Source: a virus. From it: a DNA stretch of 21,283 nucleotides. The DNA lies in the UHGV virus genome UHGV-1980310, one strand, 5' to 3'. Each line of letters opens with the position of its first letter. The first letter of the stretch is position 1. The position numbers were made by a program, and so were the translations under genes. The notes beneath the pieces are model-generated. The model had not been told where the DNA came from. It did not search any database and worked only from the letters and a program-made list of their open reading frames with translations. Positions 3,107-21,283 of this stretch are shown piece after piece.

Positions 3107-3108
3107 TT

Positions 3109-3597: not shown

Positions 3598-3598
3598 G

Positions 3599-4149: not shown

Positions 4150-4153
4150 TTCC

Positions 4154-4447: not shown

Positions 4448-4458
4448 GGAAAAACAAA

Positions 4459-6889: not shown

Positions 6890-7010
6890 CGGTCAGTGGC
6901 GGGGGTCGAACCCGCATACATGATCCACCCGGAGGCAGGCACCGACTTTACCAGTTAAGCGTACACTGACCGCCTGTTTATTTTATATTCATCCTTTATG
7001 CGGAGGCAAT

Positions 7011-7484
7011 ATGTCATCCATTGATGCCGCTGTCGTTGTTGACGTTACGCGTCTCCAGCGAGTGTTTGCCCGGCTTCAGTTTGTGGGCGGCGGAAAAGAC
7101 CTGGCCCGCAGTGTGGCGGCGAGTCTTCTGTCATCGTCAGAAATGGCGTTTGAGCAGGAAAAAGAGCCGGATGGTGAACGCTGGCATGACTGGTCAGATC
7201 CTTACCGTGAGTGGCGTACCCGTAAGGGATACACGCCCGGCAAAATCCTGACGCTGAACGGCGATCTGGCCCGCCGCCTGACCACGGATTATGGCGATAC
7301 CTGGGCGCTGATTGGATCAAATGAACCTTATGCAGCCATTCATCAGTGGGGTGGCCTGCCTGGTATGCCACCGGGACCGGCGGCCATTGGCGCACGTCCG
7401 TATATGGGCTTTGATCAGGTGGCAGAACAGGAGATCATGGACGAAATCAGAAAACGCTTTAAAAAGGCCACAGAAACGCCGTAA
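7011..7484 (+). CDS. Virion morphogenesis protein, Mu G-like
   Basis: 157-aa ORF directly after the F-like gene with GGAGG RBS; position and size match Mu G. Confidence 0.6.
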   Translation: MSSIDAAVVVDVTRLQRVFARLQFVGGGKDLARSVAASLLSSSEMAFEQEKEPDGERWHDWSDPYREWRTRKGYTPGKILTLNGDLARRLTTDYGDTWALIGSNEPYAAIHQWGGLPGMPPGPAAIGARPYMGFDQVAEQEIMDEIRKRFKKATETP

Positions 7485-7661
7485 TGGTTTAAGGTATGCA
7501 AACGTATTACCTTACCCCCTTCAGGCGCGTGTCGTGATTTTCTAACCTGTATTTAACGGGCTTTAAAATCTGCGTGAAGCGCCTTTCTCATTCCCCCCCT
7601 GTCAGCACTTTCTGAAGTCCCGCAAAACCAGCCCCAAAAATACCCGGCTTATGCTGCCGGT

Positions 7662-8795
7662 ATGAAGACAGAAAATCACCCAAAAGACGCAAATCGCCCC
7701 TCCGGTTTAGCCGTGCTTTCAGCTTCGCTGACTGCATCCGGCGACGGATGGTGTCAGTTACTGCCAGCCGGTCGGGTAAAGGCCCGTGACGGTCGCCCGG
7801 AAAAACCGACTGAAGGCTGGCTGATTAACGAATCCGCCTGTAACCGGATGAAAGCCGGGCTTTCCGCCCTGCATCAGCCGTTACTGATTGATTATGACCA
7901 TCACTCCGTGAATGCGCAGAAAAACGGATTCAAGGCTATTGCTGCAGGATGGGTTAAGCCGGAAAACATCGAATGGCGTGAGGGTCAGGGGATTTTCATT
8001 AAACCTGAATGGACACCACAGGCACAAAAACATATTGATGACCGTGAATATGCCTATCTGTCTGCATATATGCATTATTTCGCTGACACCGGGGAACCCT
8101 ACCTGTTGCGCATGGCTTCCCTGACGAATGATCCGGGTATTACGGGTATGAACCCTGTCGCGGCACTCAGTGCTGATGATCTCTATGTCGTTTCCCCTTC
8201 TCAGGAGCAATCCCCCATGAATGAGCAATTACGCCAGTTGCTGACGGCGCTCGGTCTGACCGTGGCTGACGGTGACGAATTTACACCGGAACTGGGCACG
8301 GCGGCGCTGTCTGCCCTTACCGGGATCAAAACCCGTGCGGATGCGCACGACACCCTGAAAACGCAGGTTGCCAGCCTGTCGGCAGAGCTGGAAACCGCAA
8401 AAGGCACACCAACTGGCGGCACTATTGATCTGACGAAAAACGTGCCCGTTGAGACGTATAACGCCCTGCGTACCGAATATGTCGCGTTGTCGGCACAACA
8501 CGGCAGCACCACGCTGGAGCAGTTGCTGGATAAGGCCGAGTCCGAAGGACGCATTTTCAAAAGCGAACGCGGATACATGGAAGGACTCGGACAACAGATT
8601 GGTGTTGCGGCACTTTCTGCACAGCTTGACGCCCGCCAGCCGGTTGCGGCTCTGACCACTCTTCAGACCGACACCGTAACCGTGCCGGATAAAAAGACCG
8701 CCACCGCTGCGCTGTCGGCTGAAGATATCGCCGCCGCCCATCTGCTGGGTAAAACCGAAGCCGAGTTCCTGAAAATGAAAGAGGAAATGCAATAA
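7662..8795 (+). CDS. Head protease/scaffold protein, Mu I-like
   Basis: 377-aa ORF immediately upstream of the major head gene with a stop/start overlap; Ala-rich acidic C-terminal half typical of scaffolds. Assigned by synteny. Confidence 0.6.
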   Translation: MKTENHPKDANRPSGLAVLSASLTASGDGWCQLLPAGRVKARDGRPEKPTEGWLINESACNRMKAGLSALHQPLLIDYDHHSVNAQKNGFKAIAAGWVKPENIEWREGQGIFIKPEWTPQAQKHIDDREYAYLSAYMHYFADTGEPYLLRMASLTNDPGITGMNPVAALSADDLYVVSPSQEQSPMNEQLRQLLTALGLTVADGDEFTPELGTAALSALTGIKTRADAHDTLKTQVASLSAELETAKGTPTGGTIDLTKNVPVETYNALRTEYVALSAQHGSTTLEQLLDKAESEGRIFKSERGYMEGLGQQIGVAALSAQLDARQPVAALTTLQTDTVTVPDKKTATAALSAEDIAAAHLLGKTEAEFLKMKEEMQ

Positions 8796-9742
8796 TGCCT
8801 ACCCCGATCACACCGGCGATGATCACCGCCCTGATGACGGGCTACCGTTCTGATTTTCAGGCCGGGATGTCCATGGCTCCGTCTCAGTACCAGAAAATTG
8901 CGATGACCGTACCGTCCACGTCGAAATCCAACACCTACGGCTGGCTGGGGCAGTTCCCGCAGTTCCGTGAGTGGATCGGCTCCCGCGTCATCGAGAAGAT
9001 GAAAGCCTATGGCTACGCCATCGTGAACAAAACCTTTGAAGGCACCGTTGCCATTAGCCGCGATGACTTTGAAGACGACAATCTTGGCATCTACTCCCCG
9101 TTGTTCCAGGAGATGGGGCGCGCTGCGGCGGCACAACCGGATGAACTGGTCTTTGCTGCACTGCGTGATGGTCTGAATGCGGCCTGCTATGACGGCCAGA
9201 ACTTCTTTGATACCGAACACCCTGTTTACCCCAAAGTGGATGGCTCCGGTGATGCACAGATGGTCAGCAATATGTTTGTGGCAAAAACCGGCTCTGTCGG
9301 TGCACAGGCGGATTACAGCGGCCCGGCCTGGTATCTGCTTGACTGCTCCCGCGCGGTAAAACCGCTGATTTATCAGGATCGCCGCAAGGCCGAACTGGTT
9401 GCCCAGACAAAAGTCGATGAAGGCCGTGCGTTTACTGATAACGAGTTTGTGTTCGGTGCTTCCGCCCGTCGCAATGTGGGCTACGGCTTCTGGCAGATGG
9501 CCTACATGATGCAGTCACCGCTGACGCTGGATGCGCTGTGGCACGGCTGGTCAGCCATGCGTGACTTTAAGGCTGACGGTGGCCGCAAACTCGGCATCAA
9601 ACCCACCCATATTGTTGTCCCCACCTCGCTGGAAAAACAGGCGGTGCAGCTGCTGGAGCGCGAGCTGTTCGCGGACGGTAACACCACCGTCTCTAACGAG
9701 ATGAAGGGCAAGCTGGAGCTGGTTGTCGCGGATTATCTGTAA
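8795..9742 (+). CDS. Major head (capsid) subunit, Mu T-like
   Basis: 315 aa, follows the I-like gene with TAATG coupling; size and position match Mu gpT. Confidence 0.65.
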   Translation: MPTPITPAMITALMTGYRSDFQAGMSMAPSQYQKIAMTVPSTSKSNTYGWLGQFPQFREWIGSRVIEKMKAYGYAIVNKTFEGTVAISRDDFEDDNLGIYSPLFQEMGRAAAAQPDELVFAALRDGLNAACYDGQNFFDTEHPVYPKVDGSGDAQMVSNMFVAKTGSVGAQADYSGPAWYLLDCSRAVKPLIYQDRRKAELVAQTKVDEGRAFTDNEFVFGASARRNVGYGFWQMAYMMQSPLTLDALWHGWSAMRDFKADGGRKLGIKPTHIVVPTSLEKQAVQLLERELFADGNTTVSNEMKGKLELVVADYL

Positions 9743-9785
9743 ACGGTGAGCCGGGCTTACGGCCCGGCCCCTGCGGAGGGCAAAT

Positions 9786-10145
9786 ATGAATGAACATCAC
9801 ACTGTGGCAGCAACAGATGATTTAGGCCTTCAGGTCAGTGGTGACAGTCCTGTCACGGTACTGGCAGAAGTGCGTTGCAGTCGTGCGCAGTTTCGTCGTG
9901 CGGGGTTCCTGTTCATGCGGGGACGCCAGCAGGTTGACGTCACCCCGGAGCAGCTTGCCCGACTGGAAGCGGAGCCATGCCTCACTGTACGAATACTACA
10001 GACGCCTGGTGATGATGCGGGAGCCGTGGCGGGTGTGGTTCATGCAGAGACCGGTGCAGATTTAGCCGAAGCCGAAACCGTACAGGATGCTCCCCGGAAA
10101 AAGACCGGCAATAACGCCAGACAGGCGAAAAAGGCGCGCGCATGA
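9786..10145 (+). CDS. Hypothetical head/neck protein
   Basis: GGAGGG RBS; first gene of a tightly coupled block (ATGA overlaps) between the capsid gene and the putative sheath gene. Confidence 0.45.
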   Translation: MNEHHTVAATDDLGLQVSGDSPVTVLAEVRCSRAQFRRAGFLFMRGRQQVDVTPEQLARLEAEPCLTVRILQTPGDDAGAVAGVVHAETGADLAEAETVQDAPRKKTGNNARQAKKARA

Positions 10146-10561
10146 ATTACGCCACCGAAACCGATATGCGGGCACGTTACCGCGAGGATTTGCTCAGGCC
10201 ATTACTGGCCGTGCCCCGTTCGGATGAACCGGACACGCGCAAGCTGAACCGGGCACTGACGGACGCGTCTGCCCTTATCGACAGCTATCTGTCTTCCCGT
10301 TACACGCTGCCGCTGGCGGTGGTTCCGGCGGTCCTTGTTCAGCATTGCTGCACGATTGCCTTTTATTACCTGTGCGATCAGCGGGCATCCGATCAGGCGC
10401 GTGACCGTTACCGTGAGGCGCTGGCCTGGCTGAAAGATGTCATGAACGGTAACGTGCCGGTCGGCGTGGATACAGACGGTGCGGCCCCTGAATCCGGGGA
10501 TTTACCGCAGGTGCAGTCTGATGCGGCGGTGTTCGGGCGCAACCAGAAGGGCTTTATATGA
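10142..10561 (+). CDS. Mu gp36-like (DUF1320-type) head-tail joining protein
   Basis: ATGA overlap with the upstream gene; ~140 aa; N-terminus and position are consistent with Mu gp36 homologues. Assigned from memory of the family. Confidence 0.45.
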   Translation: MNYATETDMRARYREDLLRPLLAVPRSDEPDTRKLNRALTDASALIDSYLSSRYTLPLAVVPAVLVQHCCTIAFYYLCDQRASDQARDRYREALAWLKDVMNGNVPVGVDTDGAAPESGDLPQVQSDAAVFGRNQKGFI

Positions 10562-11121
10562 TTACGGAAACCGAACAGGCATATATCACCCGTATTCGTG
10601 AGTATTTCGGGAATGAACTGGTGTCTGTTGACACACATCCCGGCGACTGGAGCGACAGCGTGCTGCGCACCATGCTGATTAACGCCCCGGCTATCTATGT
10701 TGCCTGGCTGGGTGCCGGTGAAGGGCGTACCCGTGGGCGTCTGGTCAGTCACTGGGTGTTCTACGTCATCGGCGACATGCTCAATGGCCGTGAGGTCAGC
10801 CGTCCCGGGCTTTATCAGATTGTGGCCCGCCTGATTACCGTGCTGGACGGCTTCAGAGCAGAAAAAACCTCACCGCTTTACTTTGAAAAGGCGGTCAACG
10901 GTTACACCGAAACGCAGGCAGGCAGCGGTGCCGTGATGTACGCCCTGTATTTCTCATGCGAGGAAATGATCGACCCGCTGACGGATATCAGCTCGCTGGA
11001 TGATTTCCTGCGCCATTACGAAACCTTTACCGAACCGGAAGGCACGCCGGAATTTAAGGCACACATCCGTCTGCCTGGTGCAACTGCCGCCGGTGAAAAC
11101 GCCGGACTGTCAGAGGAATAA
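10558..11121 (+). CDS. Mu gp37-like protein
   Basis: ATGA overlap with the upstream gene; size and position match Mu gp37. Confidence 0.45.
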   Translation: MITETEQAYITRIREYFGNELVSVDTHPGDWSDSVLRTMLINAPAIYVAWLGAGEGRTRGRLVSHWVFYVIGDMLNGREVSRPGLYQIVARLITVLDGFRAEKTSPLYFEKAVNGYTETQAGSGAVMYALYFSCEEMIDPLTDISSLDDFLRHYETFTEPEGTPEFKAHIRLPGATAAGENAGLSEE

Positions 11122-11124
11122 CAG

Positions 11125-11403
11125 ATGACAACCATTTTTATTAAACCTGCGCCGGGATGCCTGATCCGCGATCCCGACACGATGACTCCGCTCTCTCAGG
11201 ACGGGGAAGAGAAACCCTTCACTCCGTTCTGGTGCCGCCGTCTTAATGATGGCGACGTCATTGTGGTGGATAAAACGGCGGAGCCTGCCCCGGCTGCCAC
11301 AACAGGTAATACCGGCGCGGCGGCAAAACCAGCGGGAGCGGCAGCAGAAAAAACTGCGGCGGTGGCTGAAAAAACCGCAGCATCAGATAAGGGGACGTCC
11401 TGA
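11125..11403 (+). CDS. Mu gp38-like small protein with Ala/Thr-rich low-complexity C-terminus
   Basis: 92-aa ORF in the gp38 position; repetitive AAEKTAA motifs at the C-terminus. Confidence 0.4.
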   Translation: MTTIFIKPAPGCLIRDPDTMTPLSQDGEEKPFTPFWCRRLNDGDVIVVDKTAEPAPAATTGNTGAAAKPAGAAAEKTAAVAEKTAASDKGTS

Positions 11404-13025
11404 TGATTAACTTTGATTATATCGGCGATAACAATCGCATTCCGCTGGTACAGATTGAAATCAATAATTCAATGGCCGTGACCGGCACTCCACCACAGCG
11501 TCAGGCGGTACTGTTGTTTGGTCAGGCTGCAATGAAAGACACCACCATTCAGGGGCGCGGTCAGCTTGATGTACCAGTACGTATTACCCGAGCTTCACAA
11601 GCAAGAGAACTCTGGGGGCGAGGTTCCATGATTGCACTGATGGTAGAGGAATTTATCGCCATTAACCCTGACACAGAGTTATATGCCATTGCACAGGGGG
11701 CTGGAACAGGTCAGTCCAGGGCATGCGTGATGAATATCATTGGAACAGCATTGGCAGACGGGGTGTTAAGTGTTTACATCGGCGGTCGCCGTTACCTCCT
11801 GCCCGTCAGTAAGGGGAAAAAAGGTAAAGAGCTTGTGGAAGAGCTGGCTAAGGTCATTAACGCTGACACTGATGCGCCATTCACTGCTATCGCAGCTGAA
11901 GTCAGTGGTGATAATGCTGAAGGACTTAAAGGCAGCATGGGGGTTAACGCCCGCTTTATCGGTGAATGCTCAGCTCATGATTTACGGGTGAACTATTATG
12001 ACGGTGAAACTACACCGGCCGGTCTTACGCTGGAGCTCGTCGCGCCAACACAGAAGGCAACAAACCCCGATATCACCCGTAGCGTCTCAGGGATGGGGAA
12101 TCGTCAGTACAACTACATCGTCATGCCCTATAAGGATGCGGCAAATCTCAAAATTCTGGCGGATGAACTGCTGAAACGCTGGGGACCGGTAAAAATGTCG
12201 GACGGTATGGTCTGGATGGCGCATACCGGCACCTTCGGTACGGCAACCAGTTTTGGTGAATCCCGTAATGACTTCCTGTTTACCTGCACTTCTATTCCTA
12301 AAGCACCAGAGCCGGATTATGTCTGGGCGGCCTCCATTTGTGCGGTCTGTGCGCCCTCCCTGTCAACGGATCCGGCCCGACCATTACAGACACTGGCGCT
12401 GCCTGCCCGTATGGCACCTGAAGCACCAGCTCGTCTGACGCGGGAAGAGCGAAACAGCCTGCTTTATACCGGCATGTCCACGGTGACCGTCGCGGCCGCT
12501 GACATGGTGCAGATTGAACGTCAGGTGACGATGTACCGTCAGAATGCATACGGCGAAAGCGATCCCAGCTATCTGGATGTGGAAACCATCTACACCCTGT
12601 CATATCTGCGTTATTCCCTGCGCACCTTTATCACGCAACGTTTTCCGCGCCATAAACTGGCTGATGACGGGACGCCTGTTCGTGCAGGTCAGAATATCGT
12701 GACGCCGGAGATCATGAAACTTCAGTTAATTTCGCTGGGTGAAGAATGGGTGGAGCTGGGACTGGTCGAAAATCTGGACACCTTTAAAAAGAATCTGCTC
12801 GTGGAGCGCAACACAAAAGACCGTAACCGTCTGGATGTGATGTGTACACCGGATCTGGTTAACCAGTTCCGCTTCATGGCCGCGCACCCGGATTACGGCA
12901 CGTTAAATGTGCTGATAAACAGCTTTGAAAGTCGTTATAACGCTGCTGAACAGGGCGTGGTTGAGTTCACCATTAATGTCACGCCGGTAAGTGATGATAT
13001 CTGGGGTTACCGGAATGTGATATGA
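11403..13025 (+). CDS. Putative contractile tail sheath protein (Mu L position), 540 aa
   Basis: Large ORF in the sheath position after gp36-38-like genes, with TGATG coupling. Assigned by synteny only. Confidence 0.5.
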   Translation: MINFDYIGDNNRIPLVQIEINNSMAVTGTPPQRQAVLLFGQAAMKDTTIQGRGQLDVPVRITRASQARELWGRGSMIALMVEEFIAINPDTELYAIAQGAGTGQSRACVMNIIGTALADGVLSVYIGGRRYLLPVSKGKKGKELVEELAKVINADTDAPFTAIAAEVSGDNAEGLKGSMGVNARFIGECSAHDLRVNYYDGETTPAGLTLELVAPTQKATNPDITRSVSGMGNRQYNYIVMPYKDAANLKILADELLKRWGPVKMSDGMVWMAHTGTFGTATSFGESRNDFLFTCTSIPKAPEPDYVWAASICAVCAPSLSTDPARPLQTLALPARMAPEAPARLTREERNSLLYTGMSTVTVAAADMVQIERQVTMYRQNAYGESDPSYLDVETIYTLSYLRYSLRTFITQRFPRHKLADDGTPVRAGQNIVTPEIMKLQLISLGEEWVELGLVENLDTFKKNLLVERNTKDRNRLDVMCTPDLVNQFRFMAAHPDYGTLNVLINSFESRYNAAEQGVVEFTINVTPVSDDIWGYRNVI

Positions 13026-13351
13026 CCGGCGCAACCATTCAGGAGCGTCAGCGTTATGCCGGGAATAAATACCGGATGAAACCCTCTCTTAACCGTGAAT
13101 TTTATATCCGGTTTGCGGCAGAGTTTGGTTATGAAATAGATATTCAGCCATCACCGGATTCACAGTGGGTCAGTATTGTCACGATTAACAGTGAAACCGG
13201 CTACCGGAATATGAATGTGCTGGATGATATTCTCACGCCGCTGCGTATTTATGAAGGCGGTGCGCTGGAATGTATTCTGAACCGTTATAAGCCTGCATGG
13301 CAGACGTTTATTTACGTGTATGCAAACAGCCATGAAGAGGAGACTATTTAA
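13022..13351 (+). CDS. Short DUF2313 / Mu gp48-like protein, apparently only the C-terminal half
   Basis: C-terminal motif [14 protein letters not shown] and central [13 protein letters not shown] resemble YmfQ / Mu gp48-family proteins, which are ~190 aa. Sits directly upstream of the tail fibre gene as gp48 does in Mu. Recollection-based. Confidence 0.4.
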
Positions 13352-14241
13352 TGTTTCATGTTGATAATAATTCCGGCGTGGCGAATATGCCTGCGCTGGC
13401 ACCAGCGCAGAGTAATACCACCACCTGGTTTACCGAAGGTGACGGACAAAAAGGTATCAGCTGGATTGGTCAGGACTGGCTGAATATTCTCCAGGCCGAA
13501 CTGCTGAATATTCTGGCTGAAGCCAGTATTCAGCCGGATAAGGCGCAGTTAAACCAGCTTACGCTGTCCATTAAAGCCATTATCGCTGCGAATGCCTTTT
13601 CCCGGAAAAATAACCTGAAAGAAATTGCTGATGCCGGTGCGGAGGCCCAGCGTCTGGCCCGTGGTTATCTTGGTCTGGGGACGCTTGCCACAAAAAACAG
13701 TCTTGGTCCCGCTGACGTTAATGCCCTGGCGAAGGATCAGAATCTCGCCGACCTAGAGAATAAGGGAACCGCCCGTAATAATCTGGATGTTTACAGCAAA
13801 AGCGAAGGTGATAACCGTTACCTGCGCAGGGAGCAGAACGGCGCAGACATTCCGGATAAAGGGGCTTTTATCGATAACGTCGGTTTACGGGAAACGGTAA
13901 ACAGGGCGGCGAATGCTCTGCCATCGGACGGCACCGCCGTTGCCGCGAATAGACTCGCCACCCCAAGAAATATTAATGGGGTTCCCTTTGACGGGACGCA
14001 GGACATAAACATCACTTCTGGTATAACACAGCAGGATGCGGATTCCCGATATATCCAGGATATCAGGCTGGGAGCAGAGAACAGGCAGGTAATGTACGGT
14101 GGGGCATATTACTCTGCGTACGGTAATGTTATGGCAGGCCTGCAGATTGACAGTAAAGTTGATGCTTCAAACGATTTTATAGCATTCAGACCCCTGCAAA
14201 AATTAGTCGGAGGTACATGGATTACGGTATCTCAGTTATAA
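13351..14241 (+). CDS. Tail fibre protein (Mu S / P2 H type); constant N-terminus fused to variable C-terminal cassette Sv in the current orientation
   Basis: C-terminus [29 protein letters not shown] and [12 protein letters not shown] are hallmark P2 H / Mu S motifs. The gene spans the left crossover site at 13868-13893. Confidence 0.8.
13868..13893. repeat. Left crossover site (gix/hix-like 26-bp imperfect palindrome) of the invertible segment
   Basis: TTATCGATAACGTCGGTTTACGGGAA; its inner half is identical to the inner half of the right site and resembles Gin/Hin-family recombination sites. Confidence 0.6.
13881..14005. repeat. Left arm of ~120-bp imperfect inverted repeat flanking the invertible segment
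   Basis: Reverse complement of ~15075-15197 matches this stretch with a few mismatches (for example GGCGGCGAATGC(T/C)CTGCCATCGGACGGCACCGCCGTTGCCGCGAA). Confidence 0.65.
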
Positions 14242-14292
14242 ATAGTCAGTAAATAATATATTTTAAAACAGATTTATTTCCAGGAGGATTTT

Positions 14293-14814
14293 ATGGAACT
14301 AAAAAATATAACCCGTTATTATCCTGAAAATATGCCATATGGTAATAATGTTCAGTATTTCCAGAGTGAAGATGGTAAGGATTTCTACGAATCCCTGCCA
14401 TTATTCACCAAAAAATATAAACTTTGCATAACACCTGACAGCGGCGTTATCTGCTCAATATCACAGGACGCCTCGGCGCTGTATCCTGCGGGGTTTTCTG
14501 TGGTTGAGGTCGATGAACTCCCTGAAGGCACGGATATTTCAGGAAACTGGAAGTTTGATAATGGCATAATCTCCCGTATTCCGGTTAACTACGCAAGAAA
14601 ACTGGAAGCAATGCGCCAGTCATATCTTAATCAGGCATATGAAAAAATTAATGACTGGAGAACGGAGCTACAACTGGGCACCATCAGCGATGAAGACAGA
14701 GCAGCACTTACCCAATGGATGGCATACATCAGTCAGGTGAAGAAAATGGAACTACCCGCCATTAAAACAGAAGCTGAATTTAACGCCATTAAATGGCCTG
14801 AGCAGCCACAGTAA
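14293..14814 (+). CDS. Tail fibre assembly chaperone (Mu U / P2 G type)
   Basis: AGGAGG RBS; 173 aa; C-terminal region (QWMAYISQVKKMELP...IKWPEQP) is typical of tail-fibre assembly proteins. Immediately downstream of the fibre gene. Confidence 0.8.
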   Translation: MELKNITRYYPENMPYGNNVQYFQSEDGKDFYESLPLFTKKYKLCITPDSGVICSISQDASALYPAGFSVVEVDELPEGTDISGNWKFDNGIISRIPVNYARKLEAMRQSYLNQAYEKINDWRTELQLGTISDEDRAALTQWMAYISQVKKMELPAIKTEAEFNAIKWPEQPQ

Positions 14815-14817
14815 TAA

Positions 14818-14837
14818 AGAAGGCCGGAAGGCCTTCT
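14818..14837. terminator. Bidirectional hairpin between convergent U and S'v
   Basis: AGAAGGCC-GGAA-GGCCTTCT: 8-bp GC-rich stem with a 4-nt loop, 4 nt after the U stop and 9 nt from the S'v stop. Confidence 0.5.
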
Positions 14838-14845
14838 GAATATCA

Positions 14846-15197
14846 TTATATACTTGCAGCCGTCACCCATGCTCCATTTAACAGATACTGCAACGGCCGG
14901 TAATACACGCCGCCGACGTTATCTGCCGTATTCTTACCGACATCCTGTACTTTAATTCCGGTAAGAACATTGCCGCCCCCCAGATTCAGATCCCAGCTTT
15001 CCCATGTTCCGGGCATATGTGCGGTCACCGACCCCAGTCTTATGGCGGTTACTGTTCCTGATGAGATAGTGATATCCTGCGTCCCGTCAAAGGGAACACC
15101 ATTAATTGTGTGGGCATTTGCCAGCCTGTTCGCGGCAACGGCGGTGCCGTCCGATGGCAGGGCATTCGCCGCCCTGTTTACCGTTTCCCGTAAACCG
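14846..15197 (-). other. Alternative tail-fibre C-terminal cassette (S'v), promoterless and inverted; would fuse to the constant part of S after inversion
   Basis: Minus-strand frame is open from the right crossover site down to the stop at 14846. It encodes ...[25 protein letters not shown]... (shared with Sv) then a divergent end ...YRPLQYLLNGAWVTAASI that parallels the Sv terminus. Confidence 0.7.
15075..15197. repeat. Right arm of ~120-bp imperfect inverted repeat flanking the invertible segment
   Basis: See left arm; the antisense shadow ORFs of the two arms translate to near-identical peptides. Confidence 0.65.
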
Positions 15198-15210
15198 AGG
15201 TTTTCAGGAA
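15185..15210. repeat. Right crossover site (gix/hix-like) of the invertible segment
   Basis: TTCCCGTAAACCGAGGTTTTCAGGAA, in inverted orientation to the left site; lies ~65 bp upstream of the invertase gene. Confidence 0.6.
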
Positions 15211-15275
15211 AGCCAGGATTAACTCTGTTTTATTCCTCATGCGACAATTCCGGCTTTTTATAATAAGGAAATCGT

Positions 15276-15847
15276 ATGCTGATTGGGTATATCAGGGTGT
15301 CAACAAATGACCAGAATACGGCGCTACAAAGAAATGCGCTGGAATGTGCAGGATGTGAGCTGTTTTTCGAAGACAGAATAAGCGGTAAGACAAGGGAGCG
15401 TCCCGGACTTAAACGCGCATTAAAGCGACTCCGGCCAGGGGATACCCTGCTGGTCTGGAAACTGGATCGCCTTGGACGCAGTATGCAGCACCTTGTCCTT
15501 TTAACAGAAGAACTCCGGCAACGCGGCGTTAACTTCCGCAGCATTACGGACAATATTGATACATCCACTCCCATGGGACGTTTCTTTTCCATATAATGGG
15601 CGCGCTGGCGGAAATGGAGCGGGAACTCATTATTGAACGTACACGCGCGGGTCTTGCTGCTGCCCGTGCTCAGGGGCGTCATGGCGGCAGACCTCAGAAA
15701 CTGACAGAGAAAGAGCGGGAGCAAATCGCCCGTTTGCTGGCTAATGGCGAGTCCCGTAAACAAATCGCACTGATATTTGATATTGGCCTTTCCACCCTTT
15801 ATCGTTATTTTCCTGCCTCACCAGCTCCGTCACCAAAAGTACCGTGA
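15276..15847 (+). pseudogene. gin: Gin/Hin/Pin/Cin-family serine DNA invertase, disrupted by a 1-nt frameshift
   Basis: N-terminal ORF (15276-15596, catalytic motif GYIRVSTNDQ) ends ...MGRFFSI*; the next frame continues MGALAEMERELIIERTRAGL... through the C-terminal HTH. Invertases read ...GRFFFH(V/I)MGALAEMERE, so one T is missing from the T-run at 15585-15588. Confidence 0.8.
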
Positions 15848-15932
15848 CGCTTTTTTGAATTTCCGCAAAACACATATTTTTCAGCGGTCGCTATTCTGAC
15901 TCTGTTTAATTCAGAAACAGGCAGAAAAGACG

Positions 15933-17987
15933 ATGTCAGACTCCAAGTGGAAAATGCTCTCCGCCATGCCCGGAGAGTTTTCAGTCAAGGTTGCCGGTGG
16001 CACGGCGGCATTTATTGAAAGCCCTTTCCGCCCTTCGGGTAATAAAGGGGGGATCACCTTCGCAGACTGCGTGATCCGCTTCAGCACGAAAGAGCCATTA
16101 TGGGTAATGCCGGTATCCGGTAATCCCAGTGCAGAAATCACCAGTTCAGGCGTGACTGGCATCATTCCAATCACATCTGACGTGGCCGGAACGCTCACGC
16201 CCTCCGACTGGAATGCACCGGATAACGCCGGGCCTTCCGGTAGCACGAATGGCAGCAGTTCAGAGCCGGAATATTACTTTGTTGTCATTCTCGCGGGTCA
16301 GTCAAATGGCATGGCCTACGGCGAGGGGCTGCCGTTACCGGATTCGTTTGACCGCCCGGACCCACGCATTAAGCAACTGGCACGCCGCAGTACGGTAACG
16401 CCCAACGGTACGTCGTGTACATACAACGACATCATTCCGGCAGACCACTGCCTGCATGATGTTCAGGATATGAGCGGGATAAACCACCCGAAAGCTGATC
16501 TGGCAAAAGGCCAGTACGGGACTGTCGGTCAGGGGTTGCATATTGCCAAAAAACTGCTTCCCTATATCCCACAGAATGCCGGGATACTTCTGGTGCCCTG
16601 TTGTCGTGGCGGGTCAGCATTCACCACTGGAGCCGACGGCTCATTCAGTGAGGCCAGCGGTGCTTCCGCTGATTCTTCACGCTGGGGGGCCGGTAAACCT
16701 CTGTATCAGGACCTGGTAAGCCGCACCAAAGTCGCGCTGGCGAAAAACCCGAAAAACAAACTTCTGGCTGTGGTCTGGATGCAGGGAGAGGCAGACCTTG
16801 CCTCAGGAAGCCAGCAGCATAATAGTTTATTCACGGCCATGGTTCAGCAGTTCAGAACTGACCTGGCTCCGCTTGCTGCGCAGTGCGTGAGTGGAAATGC
16901 CACCACGGTGCCGTGGATTTGCGGTGATACCACGTATTACTGGAAAAACGCTGGCACCGATAAATATGAGGCAGTATACGGTGGCTACAAAGGCAAGGAA
17001 GCACAGAAAATTTTCTTTGTACCGTTCCTGACGGATGAGAATGGACAGAGCACGCCAACGAATGCTCCGGCGGAAGACCCGGATATTGTGGCTGTCGGGT
17101 ATTACGGTGCAGCATCCCGAACCCAGGGCAGTTTTGTTTCGACACAGCGTGACAGCCATTTCAGCTCATGGGCACGCAGGGGCGTCATTTCAGACCGTCT
17201 GGCCTCAGCTATTATGCTCCATGCAGGGCGCACGGCTGAACTGATGCGCGGGCAGACCGTGACACCACCGGATGAGAAGCCGTCACCTGATACACCATCA
17301 AAACCGTCCACGCCACCCGCAGACACCACGACGATGAGTACGCTATTTGCTTACCGGGCATCTGAGTCTGAAGGACGGTTGACACCACAGGGTTGGGCTG
17401 CCGGAGGTGGCAAGGCTCAAATCGTGGATGATGCCGGAGCCAGCGGGGGTAAGGCAATGAAACTGACCAAGGAAACAGGAAGAGCCCCCTGGTACCTTGA
17501 GCATGATGCTGGTAATGGTGCGGACCTGCTGGGTAAAGGTGGTCTTGTCAGTTGTCGTTTTAAACTCGATGGCGCGCTTACGGCTAATCAGTACGCACTG
17601 GCGCTGTACTGGCCGGTTTCTGCCCTGCCGCAAGGGGTTACTCTGGAAGGAAATGCCGGTCATAACCTGCTGGCATCGTTCTACGTACAGAGCGATGCCA
17701 CAGACCTTAACGTGATGTATCACAAAGGAAACACGGCGCAGAACACGAAGCTGGGGTCATTCGGCGCATTTAATAACGAATGGCATACGCTGGGCTTCCG
17801 TTTTGCCGGTAACAACAGTATTGAGGTGACGCCGGTCATTGATGGTAAGGACGGGACACCATTCATGCTGTCGCAGTCTCCGGTCGGCACGTTTACGGCA
17901 GACAAGTTGCGCGTGACCGATATCACTAAAAATGCGACTTACCCGGTACTGATTGACAGTATCGTGGTGGAAGTGAATAACGCGTAA
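15933..17987 (+). CDS. Putative SGNH/SASA-family O-acetylesterase (NanS-p-like) with a Pro/Thr-rich linker and C-terminal ~210-aa domain
   Basis: Motif VVILAGQSNGMAYGEG (nucleophile Ser, nt ~16296-16307) and downstream WMQGEAD match the sialate O-acetylesterase family. Linker PPDEKPSPDTPSKPSTPPADTTT at ~17265-17335 separates a C-terminal beta-rich domain. Confidence 0.6.
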   Translation: MSDSKWKMLSAMPGEFSVKVAGGTAAFIESPFRPSGNKGGITFADCVIRFSTKEPLWVMPVSGNPSAEITSSGVTGIIPITSDVAGTLTPSDWNAPDNAGPSGSTNGSSSEPEYYFVVILAGQSNGMAYGEGLPLPDSFDRPDPRIKQLARRSTVTPNGTSCTYNDIIPADHCLHDVQDMSGINHPKADLAKGQYGTVGQGLHIAKKLLPYIPQNAGILLVPCCRGGSAFTTGADGSFSEASGASADSSRWGAGKPLYQDLVSRTKVALAKNPKNKLLAVVWMQGEADLASGSQQHNSLFTAMVQQFRTDLAPLAAQCVSGNATTVPWICGDTTYYWKNAGTDKYEAVYGGYKGKEAQKIFFVPFLTDENGQSTPTNAPAEDPDIVAVGYYGAASRTQGSFVSTQRDSHFSSWARRGVISDRLASAIMLHAGRTAELMRGQTVTPPDEKPSPDTPSKPSTPPADTTTMSTLFAYRASESEGRLTPQGWAAGGGKAQIVDDAGASGGKAMKLTKETGRAPWYLEHDAGNGADLLGKGGLVSCRFKLDGALTANQYALALYWPVSALPQGVTLEGNAGHNLLASFYVQSDATDLNVMYHKGNTAQNTKLGSFGAFNNEWHTLGFRFAGNNSIEVTPVIDGKDGTPFMLSQSPVGTFTADKLRVTDITKNATYPVLIDSIVVEVNNA

Positions 17988-18002
17988 GCAGGATAAAAAA
18001 AT

Positions 18003-18035
18003 GCCGCCGGTAAGGGAAAACAAGAAACCGGCGGC
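18003..18035 (-). terminator. Rho-independent terminator-like hairpin (strongest on the minus strand)
   Basis: GCCGCCGGT-N15-ACCGGCGGC: 9-bp stem flanked by an A-run upstream, which is a U-run after the hairpin on the minus strand. Confidence 0.4.
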
Positions 18036-18131
18036 AAAAAGATCGTTATATCCAAAGCAAAAAATGCAGTGCACCTTTTTACCTAACAGATATTACCGGT
18101 GTCAACACCATGTCAATAATTGGGAGGGATA

Positions 18132-18314
18132 ATGACATTTTTACAGCTTATTTTATTGTATTTCTGCACGGCAGTATGTGCGTTATATCTGGTGAGTGGT
18201 GGTTATAAGGCCATCAGAAATTATGTTCGCCGCAAAATTGAGGACGCAGCAGCTGAAAAACTCAGTAAAACAGCGCAGGTAACTCCGCTCCCAAAAGACC
18301 CGACCCAGCCCTGA
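18132..18314 (+). CDS. Small single-pass membrane protein (~60 aa)
   Basis: GGGAGGG RBS before ATG 18132; hydrophobic helix TFLQLILLYFCTAVCALYLVSGGY followed by a basic tail. Confidence 0.4.
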   Translation: MTFLQLILLYFCTAVCALYLVSGGYKAIRNYVRRKIEDAAAEKLSKTAQVTPLPKDPTQP

Positions 18315-18349
18315 TTGCAGGGCTTTATTCCCGCATAAGGAGGATATAC

Positions 18350-18604
18350 ATGCCAGAAATTAAAGGCACCGTCACTGAAGACCTGGTAAAACAGGCACTG
18401 TATTCCGGTGAAGTAAATAAGTTGCTGAAAGCGCAGGTCCGCAAGGATTTTGAGGCACAAATCGACACTTACGTTGATGAAGTGCTGGCAAAACTTATTG
18501 GGCCAGCAGTTGCGGCCAGTGATGCTGATAATGAGCCGAAAACCGACGCGCAGCCAGAGCAACCAGACCCGGCTCAGCCCGGAACTGACAGTACCATGAT
18601 GTAA
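18350..18604 (+). CDS. Hypothetical acidic 84-aa protein
   Basis: Consensus AAGGAGG RBS 6 nt upstream of the ATG; followed by hairpins at 18611-18636 and 18662-18690. Confidence 0.5.
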   Translation: MPEIKGTVTEDLVKQALYSGEVNKLLKAQVRKDFEAQIDTYVDEVLAKLIGPAVAASDADNEPKTDAQPEQPDPAQPGTDSTMM

Positions 18605-18610
18605 CAATAC

Positions 18611-18690
18611 AAACCGGTGGTGTCCTCTGCCGGTTTGACACTAATGAAAACATCTTTGCCGCTATCCAGCCATATGTAATCGCTGGATAG
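18611..18690 (+). terminator. Two hairpins in the convergent intergenic region (candidate bidirectional terminators)
   Basis: AAACCGG-N12-CCGGTTT (18611-18636) and CTATCCAGC-N11-GCTGGATAG followed by TATTTCGTATT (18662-18690). Confidence 0.4.
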
Positions 18691-18771
18691 TATTTCGTAT
18701 TCAGAAATATAGCTGCTTATGGAGCAGTCAATCCTGCTTCCCCATCCGGGCAGGCAAATGAACCGGTATCA

Positions 18772-19065
18772 TTAGTCCGATTCACGCTTTTGTAGAATCG
18801 TTCCCAGAATGCTATACAGCTCATTAGCCTGTTGCTCCATCATTGAGACGGAGGCTATACGGTGCAAAGTGATTTCAGGAGGTGGCACACCTCCATCTTC
18901 TTGCTGTGGAGGAAAAACATAAGATTTAATAAAAAAGTTGAAGCATATGAACTCTCCCGCACTCGAACTGTATTTGCAGGCATCTGAATAATCGGAAAAA
19001 TAATCATTATAGATTTCCGCATTTTCAATCATTTTTCGATTTCTCGTCGTTACATGATTGTCCAT
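18772..19065 (-). CDS. Hypothetical 97-aa protein, opposite strand to the rest of the prophage
   Basis: AAGAGG RBS immediately upstream of the ATG; AT-rich promoter-like region at 19066-19200. Only clearly reverse-oriented gene inside the prophage. Confidence 0.5.
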   Translation of the reverse strand: MDNHVTTRNRKMIENAEIYNDYFSDYSDACKYSSSAGEFICFNFFIKSYVFPPQQEDGGVPPPEITLHRIASVSMMEQQANELYSILGTILQKRESD

Positions 19066-19184
19066 AGCAGCCTCTTACGCTGGCAATTAACCAATTGACT
19101 TCTATAAATTAGTTGATTTGTTTGCTTTGCGGTATTCAAATGTACAATCATTCAGCACTTATGCGTTACAGCACCGTTTAAAAT

Positions 19185-19282
19185 TAGTGATCAAACTCAT
19201 AAATTTTCGCTAATGACATTTCGTGTTATTTGTTGTATCAATTAAATAAATCAAATCGATCGTTTTTGTCGATCGATTGAGT
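19185..19282 (+). promoter_or_regulatory. Putative Dam-methylation-sensitive mom regulatory region
   Basis: Three GATC sites (19189, 19258, 19271) within ~85 bp upstream of com; the last two sit in a palindrome AATCGATCG-N7-CGATCGATT. Confidence 0.4.
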
Positions 19283-19321
19283 GATAAAGATATCAACAAC
19301 AAAGCAGGAGGTTATGCGGCC

Positions 19322-19522
19322 ATGTATCGAAACATACGGTGCCGACATTGTAACAAGCTACTGGCACGAGCCAGCTTCAGTTATCTGGAAGTTAAATGTC
19401 CGCGCTGTAAAACCCTCAATCAAATCACATCTCAGAGCGCCACAGAGCACCCCACATACACAAGGAAATCCTGTCGTGGGGAACAGAAAGCAAGTTACAT
19501 CCCGTATCATCAGCACGCCTGA
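19322..19522 (+). CDS. com: Com, zinc-finger translational activator of mom
   Basis: [10 protein letters not shown]...EVKCPRCK matches the Mu Com CxxC...CxxC zinc-binding pattern; ~66 aa; overlaps the 5' end of the mom frame as in Mu. Confidence 0.75.
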
Positions 19523-20213
19523 ACTTATTCACTATAACGACAATATCGTCGGTTATGGCTCCCGTGAGTTACGGGTTGAGACAATAAGTTGCTGGCTGGC
19601 CCGGCTGGTCGTCGTCAATAAACATTACAGCCATCGTTTCGTAAATAATTCCTACCTTCATCTGGGCATATTTTCAGAACGGGAGCTGGTTGGCGTAATG
19701 CAATGGGGTTATGCCCTTAATCCAAACAATGGTGCACGCGTCGTAACTGGCACGCAGAACCGCGAATATATGGAGCTTAACCGGTTATGGCTGCATGACT
19801 GTATGCCGAGAAACTCCGAATCAAGGGCAATCAGTTACGCGCTCAAACTAATCAGACAACTTTATCCGCAGGTGCAGTGGGTTCAGTCGTTTGCAGATGA
19901 GCGTTGTGGCTGTCTTGGTGTCGTGTACCAGGCAAGCAATTTTGATTATGTAGGCAGTCATGAAACAACATTCTATGAACTTGATGGCGAGTGGTATCAC
20001 GAGATTTGCAAGAATGCAATCAAACGAGGAGGACAGCGAGGTGAACATCTGCGGGCTAATATCGACAGAGCCAGTGTTCATAAATTCCGTCAGTTTCGTT
20101 ACATCCGGTTTCTGGACAAGAGAGCCAGAAAACGCCTTAACACAAAGCTATTCAAAGTCCAGCCTTACCCAAAACCACAAACAGTTAAAACTGGTTTGAA
20201 AGAGAGTGAATGA
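19476..20213 (+). CDS. mom: Mom-like DNA modification protein; start codon uncertain
   Basis: Long ORF overlapping the 3' end of com, last phage gene before the right end, ~237 aa from an in-frame GTG at 19476. The in-frame ATG at 19314 sits too close to the SD, and there is no other in-frame ATG before ~19700. Confidence 0.65.
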
Positions 20214-20249
20214 ACGCTTAAAAACTCATTCTAAAACTCAAAAGAAAAG

Positions 20250-20289
20250 CGCCGATTTAGTATCAAATAAGTTGCGTATCGGCGTTTTT
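20250..20289 (+). terminator. Hairpin plus T5 run downstream of mom
   Basis: CGCCGAT-N21-ATCGGCG followed by TTTTT; the loop is long, so it is a weak terminator call. Confidence 0.35.
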
Positions 20290-20333
20290 CAGCGGTATCA
20301 AATGAAATGCAAATCGGTATCAAAAAAATCGCC
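20259..20333. repeat. Three direct repeats of a GTATCAAA(T/A)-containing motif next to the prophage right end (candidate transposase-binding end sites)
   Basis: AGTATCAAATAAGTTGC (20259-20275), CGGTATCAAATGAAATGCA (20293-20311), CGGTATCAAAAAAATCGCC (20315-20333). Mu-family ends carry multiple transposase-binding repeats. Confidence 0.4.
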
Positions 20334-20336
20334 GCG

Positions 20337-20552
20337 CTATAACTGGCTGATGTTTTGCGCCAGCAACACGCCATCCAGCGACGGAATATTGATATCCAGA
20401 AAAATGGCGTCGACGCGGTTATGCTGCAAAAACTTCAACACGTCCAGACCGTCGTCAAAGGTGCCGACAATCTCCATCTGGCTGTGCTCTTTAATTAGCC
20501 AGCTCAGTTCCTGTTGTGCCAGGAATTCGTCTTCAACAATGATGACTTTCAC
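20337..20552 (-). pseudogene. ypdB: Host LytTR-type response regulator (ypdB-like), 5' fragment truncated by the prophage insertion
   Basis: Encodes (M)KVIIVEDEFLAQQELSWLIKEHSQMEIVGTFDDGLDVLKFLQHNRVDAIFLDINIPSLDGVLLAQNISQ then L*: the receiver domain is cut at ~residue 72. Identity as ypdB (versus paralogue yehT/btsR) is from memory. Confidence 0.6.
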
Positions 20553-20566
20553 AATATCACTCCGGC

Positions 20567-21283
20567 TCAAAGCAATAACGTAGCCTGTGAGGCGACTGGG
20601 GTGCGTTGGTTAGGAATGTAAAACGCAATTTCCGTCCCCGGCTCCAGGCGGCGGATATGCAGCCCCTCGCCATACAATAACTTCACGCGATGATGGACAT
20701 TCAGCAGGCCAATTTTATTGCCCGGCATTTCATTCGCTTCGACCCGCTCAATCACCTTTGGATCGATGCCGTGCCCGGTATCTCGCACCGCAATGCGTAC
20801 CCGATTTCCGCACTCTGCAACGCTGATGGTGACAACGCCTTTACCTTTGCAAGGCTGAATACCGTGGACAATGGCGTTCTCCACCAACGGCTGGATCAGC
20901 AGGCTGGGAATGCAGCAATTCACCTCTTCATCAATATCATAGATAACCGTCAGCTTGTCACCAAAGCGGGCCTGCTCAATGGCAATATAGTCTTTAATTT
21001 GATACAGCTCTTTTTTGATATCGATTTGCTCATCGTCTTTTAATTCAATGCTATAGCGCAGATAACGCGACAGATTAAAGATCAACTGGCGAGCGGTATC
21101 CGGATTCAGACGGATTGACGATGAAATAGCGTTCAGAGCGTTAAACAGAAAATGGGGATTAATTTTGCTTTGCAGGGCGCGAAGCTCTGCCTTATTTGCC
21201 ATTTCACGTAGCTGCTCGGCGCGTGAAACCTCCAGTTGCGTGGAGATGATTTGCGACAGACCGACCGCCATTTCCTGTAATGA
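20567..21283 (-). CDS. ypdA: Host LytS-type sensor histidine kinase (ypdA-like), 3' part; continues beyond the window
   Basis: Histidine kinase motifs [10 protein letters not shown] (H-box) and ATP-binding region ([23 protein letters not shown]); sits immediately upstream of the response-regulator fragment. Confidence 0.65.

What the first reader, a model, noticed from the sequence alone, without database searches (positions are those of the whole stretch)
20250..20575. Prophage right end lies inside a two-component response-regulator gene (ypdB-like)
The minus-strand host ORF encodes only the first ~72 residues of a LytTR-family response regulator and ends with a stop created exactly where phage-like sequence begins (~20340). 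The cognate sensor kinase gene lies immediately upstream. Random Mu-type transposition into the gene would abolish the regulator while leaving the kinase intact. The other end of the element, with the rest of the regulator gene and a 5-bp target duplication, should lie upstream of the window.
Basis: partly seen in the sequence, partly recalled or inferred. Interest (0 to 1): 0.6.

Follow-up and report, generated by a model that had tools for sequence, protein, structure and literature searches.

The report
Defective Mu-like prophage splits ypdB
A decayed Mu-type transposable prophage of a well-known E. coli family (Sp18-like) has inserted into the pyruvate-response regulator gene ypdB and cut it in two; this is an ordinary, already-annotated case of phage insertional gene inactivation that a widely sampled E. 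coli lineage inherits.

Summary
The window is E. coli DNA, 99.97% identical to strain TOE17.

- **Junction:** Host sequence starts at 20341/20342. On the minus strand, ypdB starts at GTG 20552 and keeps 70 native codons. It then reads TTA (Leu) and a TAG stop supplied by the phage terminus.
- **Neighbouring genes:** ypdA lies directly upstream and is intact as far as the window shows. Phage com and mom lie directly on the other side.
- **Other half of ypdB:** In TOE17 the remaining 534 nt of ypdB sit 1.2 kb upstream of window position 1, and AACTG is present at both junctions.
- **Phage family:** It encodes MuA, MuB, Ner, Gam, gpT, Gin, Com and Mom homologues. It occurs in 232 of 5,426 complete genomes, at many unrelated sites.

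- The element is defective: 21.5 kb against about 38 kb for an intact relative, with two large deletions. Two other strains carry it in still shorter form, so this was one ancestral insertion.
- Nine independent insertions show that the phage ends in ...CTATA and that the real duplication is usually 4 bp (ACTG here), not 5 bp.
- The left end supplies an in-frame ATG to the ypdB 3' fragment. Whether that ORF is expressed is untested.

Novelty and interest are low.

The parts
1..20341 (+). Window portion of a defective Sp18-like Mu-like prophage. It runs from the first codon of the MuA-type transposase gene to the right terminus. The left 1,211 bp (left end, repressor gene, ner-like gene) lie upstream of the window.
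   Evidence: 99.97% identical to TOE17 L003 25660-46942. 92% identical over 68-69% of its length to the Mu-like phages inserted in Stx phages LC727881 and LC727895. Pfam: Mu-transpos_C, HTH_Tnp_Mu_1, Phage-MuB_C, Phage_Mu_Gam, Mu-like_gpT, Resolvase, Com, Mom.
1..2091 (+). MuA-type transposase gene, full length (696 aa).
   Evidence: Pfam HTH_Tnp_Mu_1 and Mu-transpos_C. Annotated as intact in TOE17.
2174..3106 (+). MuB-type AAA+ transposition ATPase gene.
   Evidence: Pfam Phage-MuB_C (E = 8e-25) plus AAA_22.
5888..5898 (.). Junction of internal deletion 1. About 9.7 kb is missing relative to the intact JE86-ST05 relative (Mor, lysis, terminase and portal genes).
   Evidence: blastn of the TOE17 element against the JE86 phage jumps from JE86 position 7118 to 16857. 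Gene content of the missing block comes from the L006 annotation.
12886..12998 (.). Junction of internal deletion 2. About 7.8 kb is missing (3' end of the tail sheath gene, tail tube, tape measure, baseplate genes).
   Evidence: The alignment jumps from JE86 position 23850 to 31688. The same junction is kept in DLI.5a and AST46.
19322..19522 (+). com-like gene (zinc-ribbon translational activator of mom).
   Evidence: Pfam Zn_ribbon_Com, E = 7.5e-13. RefSeq annotates it as a Com family protein.
19476..20213 (+). mom-like DNA-modification gene, the right-most phage gene.
   Evidence: Pfam Mom, E = 7.8e-78.
20250..20341 (+). Phage right end (attR). It carries three TTTGATAC repeats on the minus strand at 20260-20267, 20295-20302 and 20317-20324, and terminates in ...GCGCTATA.
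   Evidence: Motif enrichment. It aligns in register with the left end, with the TTTGATACC core at nt 18-26 of both ends. The terminal A is invariant in 9 independent insertions.
20342..20345 (.). Right-hand copy of the target-site duplication ACTG. Together with the phage A at 20341 it reads AACTG, which looks like a 5-bp repeat.
   Evidence: K-12 has a single AACTG at this point. TOE17 has it at both junctions. A 4-bp length is inferred from the other insertions.
20337..20552 (-). Truncated ypdB (pyrR): GTG start, 70 native codons, Leu (TTA), then a TAG stop provided by the phage terminus.
   Evidence: 70/71 identical to K-12 YpdB. Receiver-domain profile positions 1-66 of 111 only. RefSeq marks it as a pseudogene missing its C-terminus.
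20567..21283 (-). 3' part of ypdA (pyrS), the cognate sensor histidine kinase. It continues beyond the window end.
   Evidence: Pfam His_kinase + HATPase_c. 237/238 identical to K-12 YpdA residues 328-565, with one substitution, N404S.

Best explanation
An Sp18-like Mu-type transposable phage transposed into codon 70/71 of the E. coli response-regulator gene ypdB (pyrR) in an ancestor of this strain.

Effect on the gene: the insertion splits ypdB into two pieces. The 5' stub encodes 70 native residues plus Leu, that is about 60% of the receiver domain and no LytTR DNA-binding domain. The 534-nt 3' fragment now lies 21.5 kb away. The regulator is therefore inactivated, while the upstream kinase gene ypdA stays intact.

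Later decay: the prophage lost about 17.5 kb in two deletions (lysis and packaging genes; tail and baseplate genes), so it can no longer make particles. Mu-type elements do not excise precisely, so the disruption is permanent and is inherited vertically.

Expected phenotype (inferred, not tested): loss of YpdA/YpdB-dependent, pyruvate-induced yhjX expression.

Shown: the junctions, the duplication, the gene identities, the deletions, and the distribution across genomes. Inferred: the mechanism of insertion, the loss of function, and the phenotype.
For: - Junction: about 5,400 genomes match only from window 20341 onward. K-12 has one AACTG where TOE17 has two flanking a 21,551/21,552-bp element.
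- ypdB pieces: the N-terminal piece is 70/71 identical to YpdB and has partial REC only. The C-terminal piece is annotated in all three carriers and is identical to YpdB residues 70-244.
- Transposable-phage identity: MuA, MuB, Ner-like HTH, Gam, gpT, Gin-like, Com and Mom homologues. Terminal repeats carry a reiterated TTTGATAC motif.
- Near-random insertion: the right end is found at 284 places in 232 genomes. Nine examined insertions lie in nine different genes or elements, each with a short duplication.
- Defectiveness: 21.5 kb against 38.2 kb, with two deletions.
- Single ancestral event: TOE17, DLI.5a and AST46 have identical junctions. DLI.5a and AST46 keep the deletion-2 junction and have one further deletion. 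Their flanks show 0 mismatches in 13.7 kb, against 4 for K-12.
- Spread: the exact 71-aa product is indexed in 265 blocks of public assemblies, in the same context in all 5 places shown.
- Function: YpdA/YpdB (PyrS/PyrR) senses pyruvate and induces yhjX (PMC7730263).
- Precedent: Sp18 disrupts sorM in Sakai (PMC7430833). Sp18 is Mu-like, is packaged and does not circularise (PMC2669165).
Against: - No expression or phenotype data exist, so loss of function is inferred from domain loss alone.
- The right terminus ends in TA-3' rather than the canonical Mu CA-3', and the family-level duplication is 4 bp rather than 5 bp. The chemistry is therefore Mu-like by homology but departs in detail from the Mu paradigm.
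- A 181-aa ORF at the left junction (phage ATG plus YpdB residues 70-244) leaves open that a LytTR-containing fragment is still made.
- The left junction was read in TOE17, not in the window's own genome, which differs from TOE17 at 7 of 21,283 positions.
Confidence: 0.95

Rival explanations
1. The 71/77-aa ORF is a natural stand-alone receiver-domain gene or a normal allelic variant, and the phage merely lies next to it.
For: The ORF has a start, a stop and a significant Response_reg match. The exact product is common in public assemblies.
Against: 5,417 of 5,426 complete genomes have a contiguous 735-nt ypdB at this locus. The stop codon and residue 71 are made from phage terminal bases. The missing 534 nt sit at the other end of the element. 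The receiver profile is covered only to position 66 of 111.
Confidence: 0.01
2. The junction is an assembly or scaffolding artefact that joins a phage contig to the ypdAB locus.
For: Repetitive prophage sequence can mis-join contigs. Several carrier genomes hold more than one Mu-like copy (places_in_record is 2-3).
Against: The identical junction occurs in three independently finished genomes from Hong Kong, Myanmar and Japan, and in many independent Logan, NCBI and ENA assemblies. Both junctions carry the matching short duplication.
Confidence: 0.01
3. The phage integrates site-specifically, or ypdB is a transposition hotspot that was hit independently in each carrier strain, rather than once in a common ancestor.
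For: Three strains from different countries share the site. Mu-type transposases have weak target preferences.
Against: No integrase was seen; MuA and MuB are present. Only 3 of 232 family-carrying complete genomes have the ypdB site, and the other 8 insertions examined are all elsewhere. The junctions are identical to the base, the internal deletion-2 junction is shared by all three strains, and their flanks are identical. All of this points to one event followed by decay.
Confidence: 0.03
4. The insertion does not simply abolish YpdB but rewires it. The phage left end supplies an ATG in frame (MIHLVT-) to YpdB residues 70-244. A receiver-truncated protein that still carries the LytTR domain would then be expressed by read-out from the phage repressor gene and would act independently of the kinase.
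For: A 181-aa ORF lies at L003 23921-24466 on the minus strand and is identical to YpdB from residue 70 to the end. The phage repressor gene (L003 24699-25229) is transcribed in the same direction, and only a weak terminator-like hairpin lies between them.
Against: No recognisable Shine-Dalgarno sequence precedes the ATG (sequence read). The frame match has a 1-in-3 chance expectation. The partial receiver domain may not fold. No expression data exist, and all carriers are identical in this region, so there is no signal of selection.
Confidence: 0.06

Closest known systems
Sp18 of E. coli O157:H7 Sakai and the Sp18-like Mu-like phages of STEC (e.g. Mu_JNE122137 in LC727895; Phi804-3 of FRIK804)
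   Same: Same gene order and the same end sequences: TGTAACCAGGTGAATCATTTGATACC at the left and GGTATCAAAAAAATCGCCGCGCTATA at the right. 92-99% nucleotide identity over shared parts. Insertion at variable sites that disrupts host genes, for example sorM in Sakai and citF, mhpD, ynjB and elfC here.
   Different: This copy has lost about 17.5 kb (packaging and lysis genes; tail and baseplate genes) and has a frameshifted Gin-like gene, so it is defective. Its insertion site, ypdB, did not turn up in the literature search.
Bacteriophage Mu (and D108, SfMu)
   Same: MuA/MuB transposition module, Ner, Gam, gpT head protein, Gin invertible tail-fibre segment, com-mom at the right end, reiterated transposase-binding repeats at both ends, and near-random insertion that causes mutations.
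   Different: Only about 73-76% identity over a few hundred bases. The right end terminates in TA-3' instead of CA-3'. The duplication is 4 bp in 7 of 8 insertions instead of Mu's 5 bp (the Mu values are from established knowledge). It also carries a SASA/DUF6645 esterase cargo gene.
YpdA/YpdB (PyrS/PyrR) pyruvate-sensing two-component system of E. coli K-12
   Same: Same locus (alaC-ypdA-ypdB-ypdC). The kinase is identical or near-identical. The two ypdB pieces together reconstitute the K-12 gene.
   Different: The regulator gene is split after codon 70 by 21.5 kb of prophage. ypdC is separated from the ypdA promoter.

Membership tests
Mu-like (Sp18-like) transposable phage | MuA-type DDE transposase with a Mu end-binding N-terminal domain | tested here: met
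   Window 1-2091: Pfam HTH_Tnp_Mu_1 and Mu-transpos_C.
Mu-like (Sp18-like) transposable phage | MuB-type AAA+ target-capture ATPase adjacent to the transposase gene | tested here: met
   Window 2174-3106: Phage-MuB_C (E = 8e-25) plus AAA_22.
Mu-like (Sp18-like) transposable phage | Imperfect terminal inverted repeats with several reiterated transposase-binding sites at each end | tested here: met
   Three TTTGATAC copies lie within 82 bp of the right terminus; the whole window holds 5 copies, against 0.54 expected. The ends align in register, 16/26 identical, with a common 9-bp core at nt 18-26. Binding itself was not tested.
Mu-like (Sp18-like) transposable phage | Insertion at many unrelated chromosomal sites, with no attachment site and no integrase | tested here: met
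   284 places in 232 genomes. Nine insertions examined lie in nine different targets. No integrase gene appears in the annotations of the elements.
Mu-like (Sp18-like) transposable phage | 5-bp target-site duplication (the Mu paradigm) | tested here: inconclusive
   At ypdB a 5-bp AACTG is repeated. However, the base after ...CTAT is A in all 9 insertions, and 4 of the 8 insertions with both ends exclude 5 bp. The duplication is therefore 4 bp in 7 of 8 and 5 bp (or 4 bp plus an extra T) in one. The depositors of LC727895 also annotate 4 bp.
Mu-like (Sp18-like) transposable phage | Termini 5'-TG...CA-3' | tested here: not met
   The left end begins with TG, but the right end finishes ...CTATA (TA-3') in all copies. 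One copy (L012) also begins with TA.
Mu-like (Sp18-like) transposable phage | com-mom module at the right end, plus Gam, a Mu-type gpT head protein and a Gin invertible segment | tested here: met
   Pfam Com, Mom, Phage_Mu_Gam, Mu-like_gpT and Resolvase. Inverted repeats at 13873-14021 and 15057-15205. The segment is inverted between strains.
Mu-like (Sp18-like) transposable phage | Complete set of lysis, packaging and tail genes (a functional phage) | tested here: not met
   Two deletions remove about 9.7 kb and 7.8 kb relative to the 38,240-bp JE86-ST05 copy. The Gin-like gene is frameshifted.
LytTR-family response regulator YpdB/PyrR | Complete receiver domain followed by a LytTR DNA-binding domain in one polypeptide | tested here: not met
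   The window ORF covers receiver-profile positions 1-66 of 111 and has no LytTR domain. K-12 YpdB has both.
LytTR-family response regulator YpdB/PyrR | Orthologous sequence and position directly downstream of the cognate kinase gene ypdA | tested here: met
   70/71 identity to YpdB. ypdA ends 14 nt upstream of the ypdB start.
LytTR-family response regulator YpdB/PyrR | Pyruvate-dependent activation of yhjX | not testable with these tools
   Function is taken from the literature (PMC7730263). No expression data exist for carrier strains.

The most novel reading that the evidence does not exclude
The insertion is not a plain knockout. The left end of every Sp18-like phage reads outward as ATG ATT CAC CTG GTT ACA. 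Here it is fused in frame to YpdB codons 70-244, co-directionally with the phage repressor gene. If the fusion is transcribed and translated, lysogeny would replace a kinase-controlled regulator with a receiver-truncated, LytTR-containing protein whose level follows the prophage repressor promoter. That would uncouple yhjX (and ypdC) from pyruvate sensing in a widely sampled E. coli lineage.
Probability: 0.05. Interest if true: 0.45.

Novelty: already known. Interest (0 to 1): 0.15.

Why it matters
- **Strain biology:** The insertion removes one of E. coli's two pyruvate-sensing two-component regulators in a lineage that appears in hundreds of public assemblies. Loss of YpdB is therefore tolerated in nature, and the junction can serve as a clean lineage marker.
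- **Annotation:** The 71/77-aa ORF should be labelled as a pseudogene fragment, not as a small receiver protein.
- **Generality:** Mu-type phages inactivating the genes they land in is a long-established phenomenon, and it is already documented for this family (Sp18 in sorM), so nothing conceptually new follows.
- **One mechanistic detail:** This common E. coli Mu-like family appears to use a TA-3' right terminus and a 4-bp duplication rather than the Mu paradigm of CA-3' and 5 bp.

Tried and rejected
- **Site-specific integration:** rejected. No integrase was seen, MuA and MuB are present, and nine insertions lie at nine different sites.
- **Assembly artefact:** rejected. Three finished genomes and many independent assemblies share the junction.
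- **Stand-alone small receiver gene:** rejected.
- **Spare intact ypdB copy in the carriers:** none. No genome has more than two ypdB places.
- **Strict 5-bp duplication:** examined and found unlikely for this family. The L009 exception was checked against its empty site and remains 5 bp, or 4 bp plus an extra T.
- **tRNA and Rfam scans of the window:** nothing found.
- **Promoter and terminator scan of the left junction:** no more sites than in shuffled sequence, so it is uninformative.
- **Literature:** no paper linking ypdB with a prophage insertion turned up. No paper discussing the end sequences or duplication length of Sp18-like phages turned up. Fried et al. 2013 (PMC3562098) is not held in the library, so function is cited from PMC7730263.
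- **Flank SNP comparison as a test of common descent:** weakly informative only, because K-12 differs from the carriers at just 4 sites in 13.7 kb.

Full report
**What is at the coordinates.**
The window is E. coli DNA. Reading 19600-21283 and listing ORFs shows a minus-strand ORF at 20337-20570. The annotated ypdB start is the GTG at 20552. From there the ORF encodes MKVIIVEDEF...LLAQNISQ, then Leu and a stop. BLASTP against K-12 YpdB gives 70/71 identities, with only residue 71 changed from Phe to Leu. Pfam finds receiver-domain profile positions 1-66 of 111 and no LytTR domain, whereas K-12 YpdB has both domains. The minus-strand ORF at 20567-21283 is the C-terminal 238 residues of the kinase YpdA. 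It has His_kinase and HATPase_c domains and is 237/238 identical to K-12, and it runs off the window. Immediately to the left of the junction lie mom (19476-20213, Pfam Mom, E = 8e-78) and the overlapping com (19322-19522). These are the right-most genes of Mu-type phages.

**Where host DNA begins.**
A megablast of 20100-21283 against 5,426 complete E. coli genomes finds about 5,400 genomes that match only from window 20341 rightwards, over ypdB and ypdA. Only three match across the junction: DLI.5a, TOE17 and AST46. The codons at the junction read AGC CAG TTA TAG on the minus strand. The stop codon and the third base of codon 71 are therefore phage sequence.

**The other end.**
The window is 99.97% identical (7 mismatches) to TOE17 L003 25660-46942. 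In TOE17 the element runs from L003 24449 to 45999/46000, a length of 21,551/21,552 bp. Its left end lies 1,211 bp before window position 1. That stretch holds the left terminus, a leftward repressor-position gene and a ner-like HTH gene. Beyond it lie the remaining 534 nt of ypdB and an intact ypdC. K-12 has a single AACTG at the site, and TOE17 has AACTG at both junctions.

**What the element is.**
Pfam identifies the following:
- a MuA-type transposase (1-2091) and a MuB-type ATPase (2174-3106);
- Gam and a Mu-type major head protein gpT;
- a Gin-like serine recombinase fragment;
- Com and Mom.

The closest phage records are the 'Bacteriophage Mu-like phage' inserts in Stx phages LC727881 and LC727895, at 92% identity. 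Mu, D108 and SfMu match only at 73-76% over a few hundred bases. The literature calls this lineage Sp18-like. It is transposable and sits at variable sites (PMC10132054). Sp18 is packaged and does not circularise (PMC2669165), and it disrupts sorM in Sakai (PMC7430833).

The right-end 391 bp occurs at 284 places in 232 of 5,426 genomes. Nine insertions that I examined lie in nine different targets: ypdB, an Stx1 phage, citF, a JAB-domain gene, mhpD, ynjB, pspG, a DUF4224 gene and a fimbrial usher gene. This is the pattern expected of transposition, not of site-specific integration.

**The ends.**
TTTGATAC occurs three times within 82 bp of the right terminus. The whole window holds 5 copies, against 0.54 expected by chance. 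The left and right ends align in register, with a TTTGATACC core at nt 18-26, but only if the A at window 20341 is counted as phage. In all nine insertions the base after ...GCGCTAT is A. In four of the eight insertions with both junctions available, a 5-bp repeat is excluded while a 4-bp repeat is perfect (AGAG, AGAA, TGAT, TTAG). Three, including ypdB, fit either reading. One (ynjB) has 5 bp (TTTAA), or 4 bp plus an extra T, and I confirmed this against its empty site. The depositors of LC727895 also annotated a 4-bp duplication. The most likely reading for the window is therefore that the phage ends at 20341 (...CTATA), that the duplication is ACTG at 20342-20345, and that the apparent 5-bp AACTG is a coincidence of the host base. 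The right terminus is TA-3', not the canonical CA-3' of Mu.

**State of the prophage.**
Compared with the 38,240-bp copy in JE86-ST05 (99% identical over shared parts), the element lacks two blocks:
- JE86 7119-16856, which holds Mor, lysis, terminase and portal genes; the junction is near window 5890.
- JE86 23851-31687, which holds the 3' end of the tail sheath gene plus tail tube, tape measure and baseplate genes; the junction is at window 12886-12998.

The Gin-like gene is frameshifted. The prophage cannot form particles. Its A and B genes, its repressor-position gene and both ends appear intact in TOE17, so transposition competence cannot be excluded.

**One event or several?**
DLI.5a and AST46 carry the same two junctions but only about 10.5 kb of phage. 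They retain the deletion-2 junction and have a further deletion of window 846-11940. Their chromosomal flanks show 0 mismatches to TOE17 over 13.7 kb, against 4 for K-12. This is consistent with common descent but is weak evidence on its own. The nested deletions and base-identical junctions argue for one ancestral insertion followed by decay. The exact 71-aa product is indexed in 265 blocks of the public assembly collection, and it shows the same alaC-ypdA-ypdB'-mom context in all 5 places displayed. The allele is therefore common in sampled E. coli.

**Consequence.**
YpdA/YpdB (PyrS/PyrR) is the low-affinity pyruvate-sensing system that induces yhjX (PMC7730263). ypdB is contiguous in 5,417 of 5,426 complete genomes, and no genome has more than two places, so carriers have no spare copy. 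The 71-aa stub lacks the last 40% of the receiver domain and the whole DNA-binding domain. I infer loss of regulator function, with an orphaned but intact kinase. In TOE17 the YpdA protein carries the same accession as in K-12. The window's copy has one conservative substitution, N404S. ypdC is cut off from the ypdA promoter.

**An untested wrinkle.**
At the left junction the phage terminus reads outward as ATG ATT CAC CTG GTT ACA. It is in frame with YpdB codon 70 onward, giving a 181-aa ORF that contains the complete LytTR domain. The ORF is co-directional with the phage repressor-position gene. There is no clear ribosome-binding site, and the frame match has a one-in-three chance expectation. 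I rate expression as unlikely but not excluded.

**Verdict.**
This is a routine, already-annotated instance of a well-known phenomenon, so interest is low.

Noticed in passing
window 20317-20345; L003 24449-24474; L005-L012 junctions: Sp18-like Mu-like phages end in ...GCGCTATA (TA-3', not CA-3'). They make a 4-bp duplication in 7 of 8 insertions that have both junctions. One insertion (ynjB, L009) shows 5 bp, or 4 bp plus an extra T. One copy (L012) also begins with TA instead of TG. This departs from the Mu paradigm of TG...CA termini and a 5-bp duplication.
   Followed up: yes
L003 23921-24466 (minus strand), about 1.2 kb upstream of window position 1: The phage left end provides an in-frame ATG (MIHLVT) fused to YpdB residues 70-244, which include the complete LytTR domain. 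The ORF is co-directional with the phage repressor-position gene. No clear Shine-Dalgarno sequence is present. Expression is unknown.
   Followed up: partly
window ~5888-5898 and ~12886-12998; L001 and L004: Two internal deletions (about 9.7 kb and 7.8 kb) make the prophage defective. DLI.5a and AST46 carry a further deletion of window 846-11940 that truncates the transposase gene. Together they form a nested decay series of a single insertion.
   Followed up: yes
window 13873-15205 (inverted repeats 13873-14021 and 15057-15205); Gin-like gene 15276-15847: The invertible tail-fibre segment has the opposite orientation in DLI.5a compared with the window and TOE17, although the adjacent Gin-like recombinase gene is frameshifted in all of them. 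Either the inversion predates the frameshift, or an invertase acted in trans.
   Followed up: partly
window 15933-17987 (+): A 684-aa cargo protein with a SASA sialate O-acetylesterase domain plus DUF6645. From memory it resembles the NanS-p esterases of Stx prophages; that resemblance was not tested. It is carried between the Gin-like gene and com/mom.
   Followed up: no
window 21051: A window-specific SNP (C, versus T in TOE17 and K-12) gives YpdA N404S in the His_kinase region. It is the only host-side difference from TOE17.
   Followed up: partly
L014-L018 (public assemblies): The exact 71-aa truncated YpdB is indexed in 265 blocks of the assembly collection, including Logan runs, NCBI GCA_000714225.1 and ENA metagenomes. 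The split-ypdB allele therefore belongs to a frequently sampled lineage.
   Followed up: partly
L006 20898-20977, L008 24092-24179, L009 21604-21683, L011 23059-23138, L012 23013-23092: RefSeq annotates a 'tRNA-OTHER' of 80-88 nt on the antisense strand between the head-morphogenesis and virion-morphogenesis genes of intact Sp18-like phages. ARAGORN and Rfam find nothing in the window, including the interval between the corresponding genes (window ~6890-7010).
   Followed up: no
L003 9479-10591; L013 9932-11044: An IS421 copy between pdeA and nupC is present in TOE17 and in K-12 but in opposite orientations. It is absent from DLI.5a and AST46.
   Followed up: no
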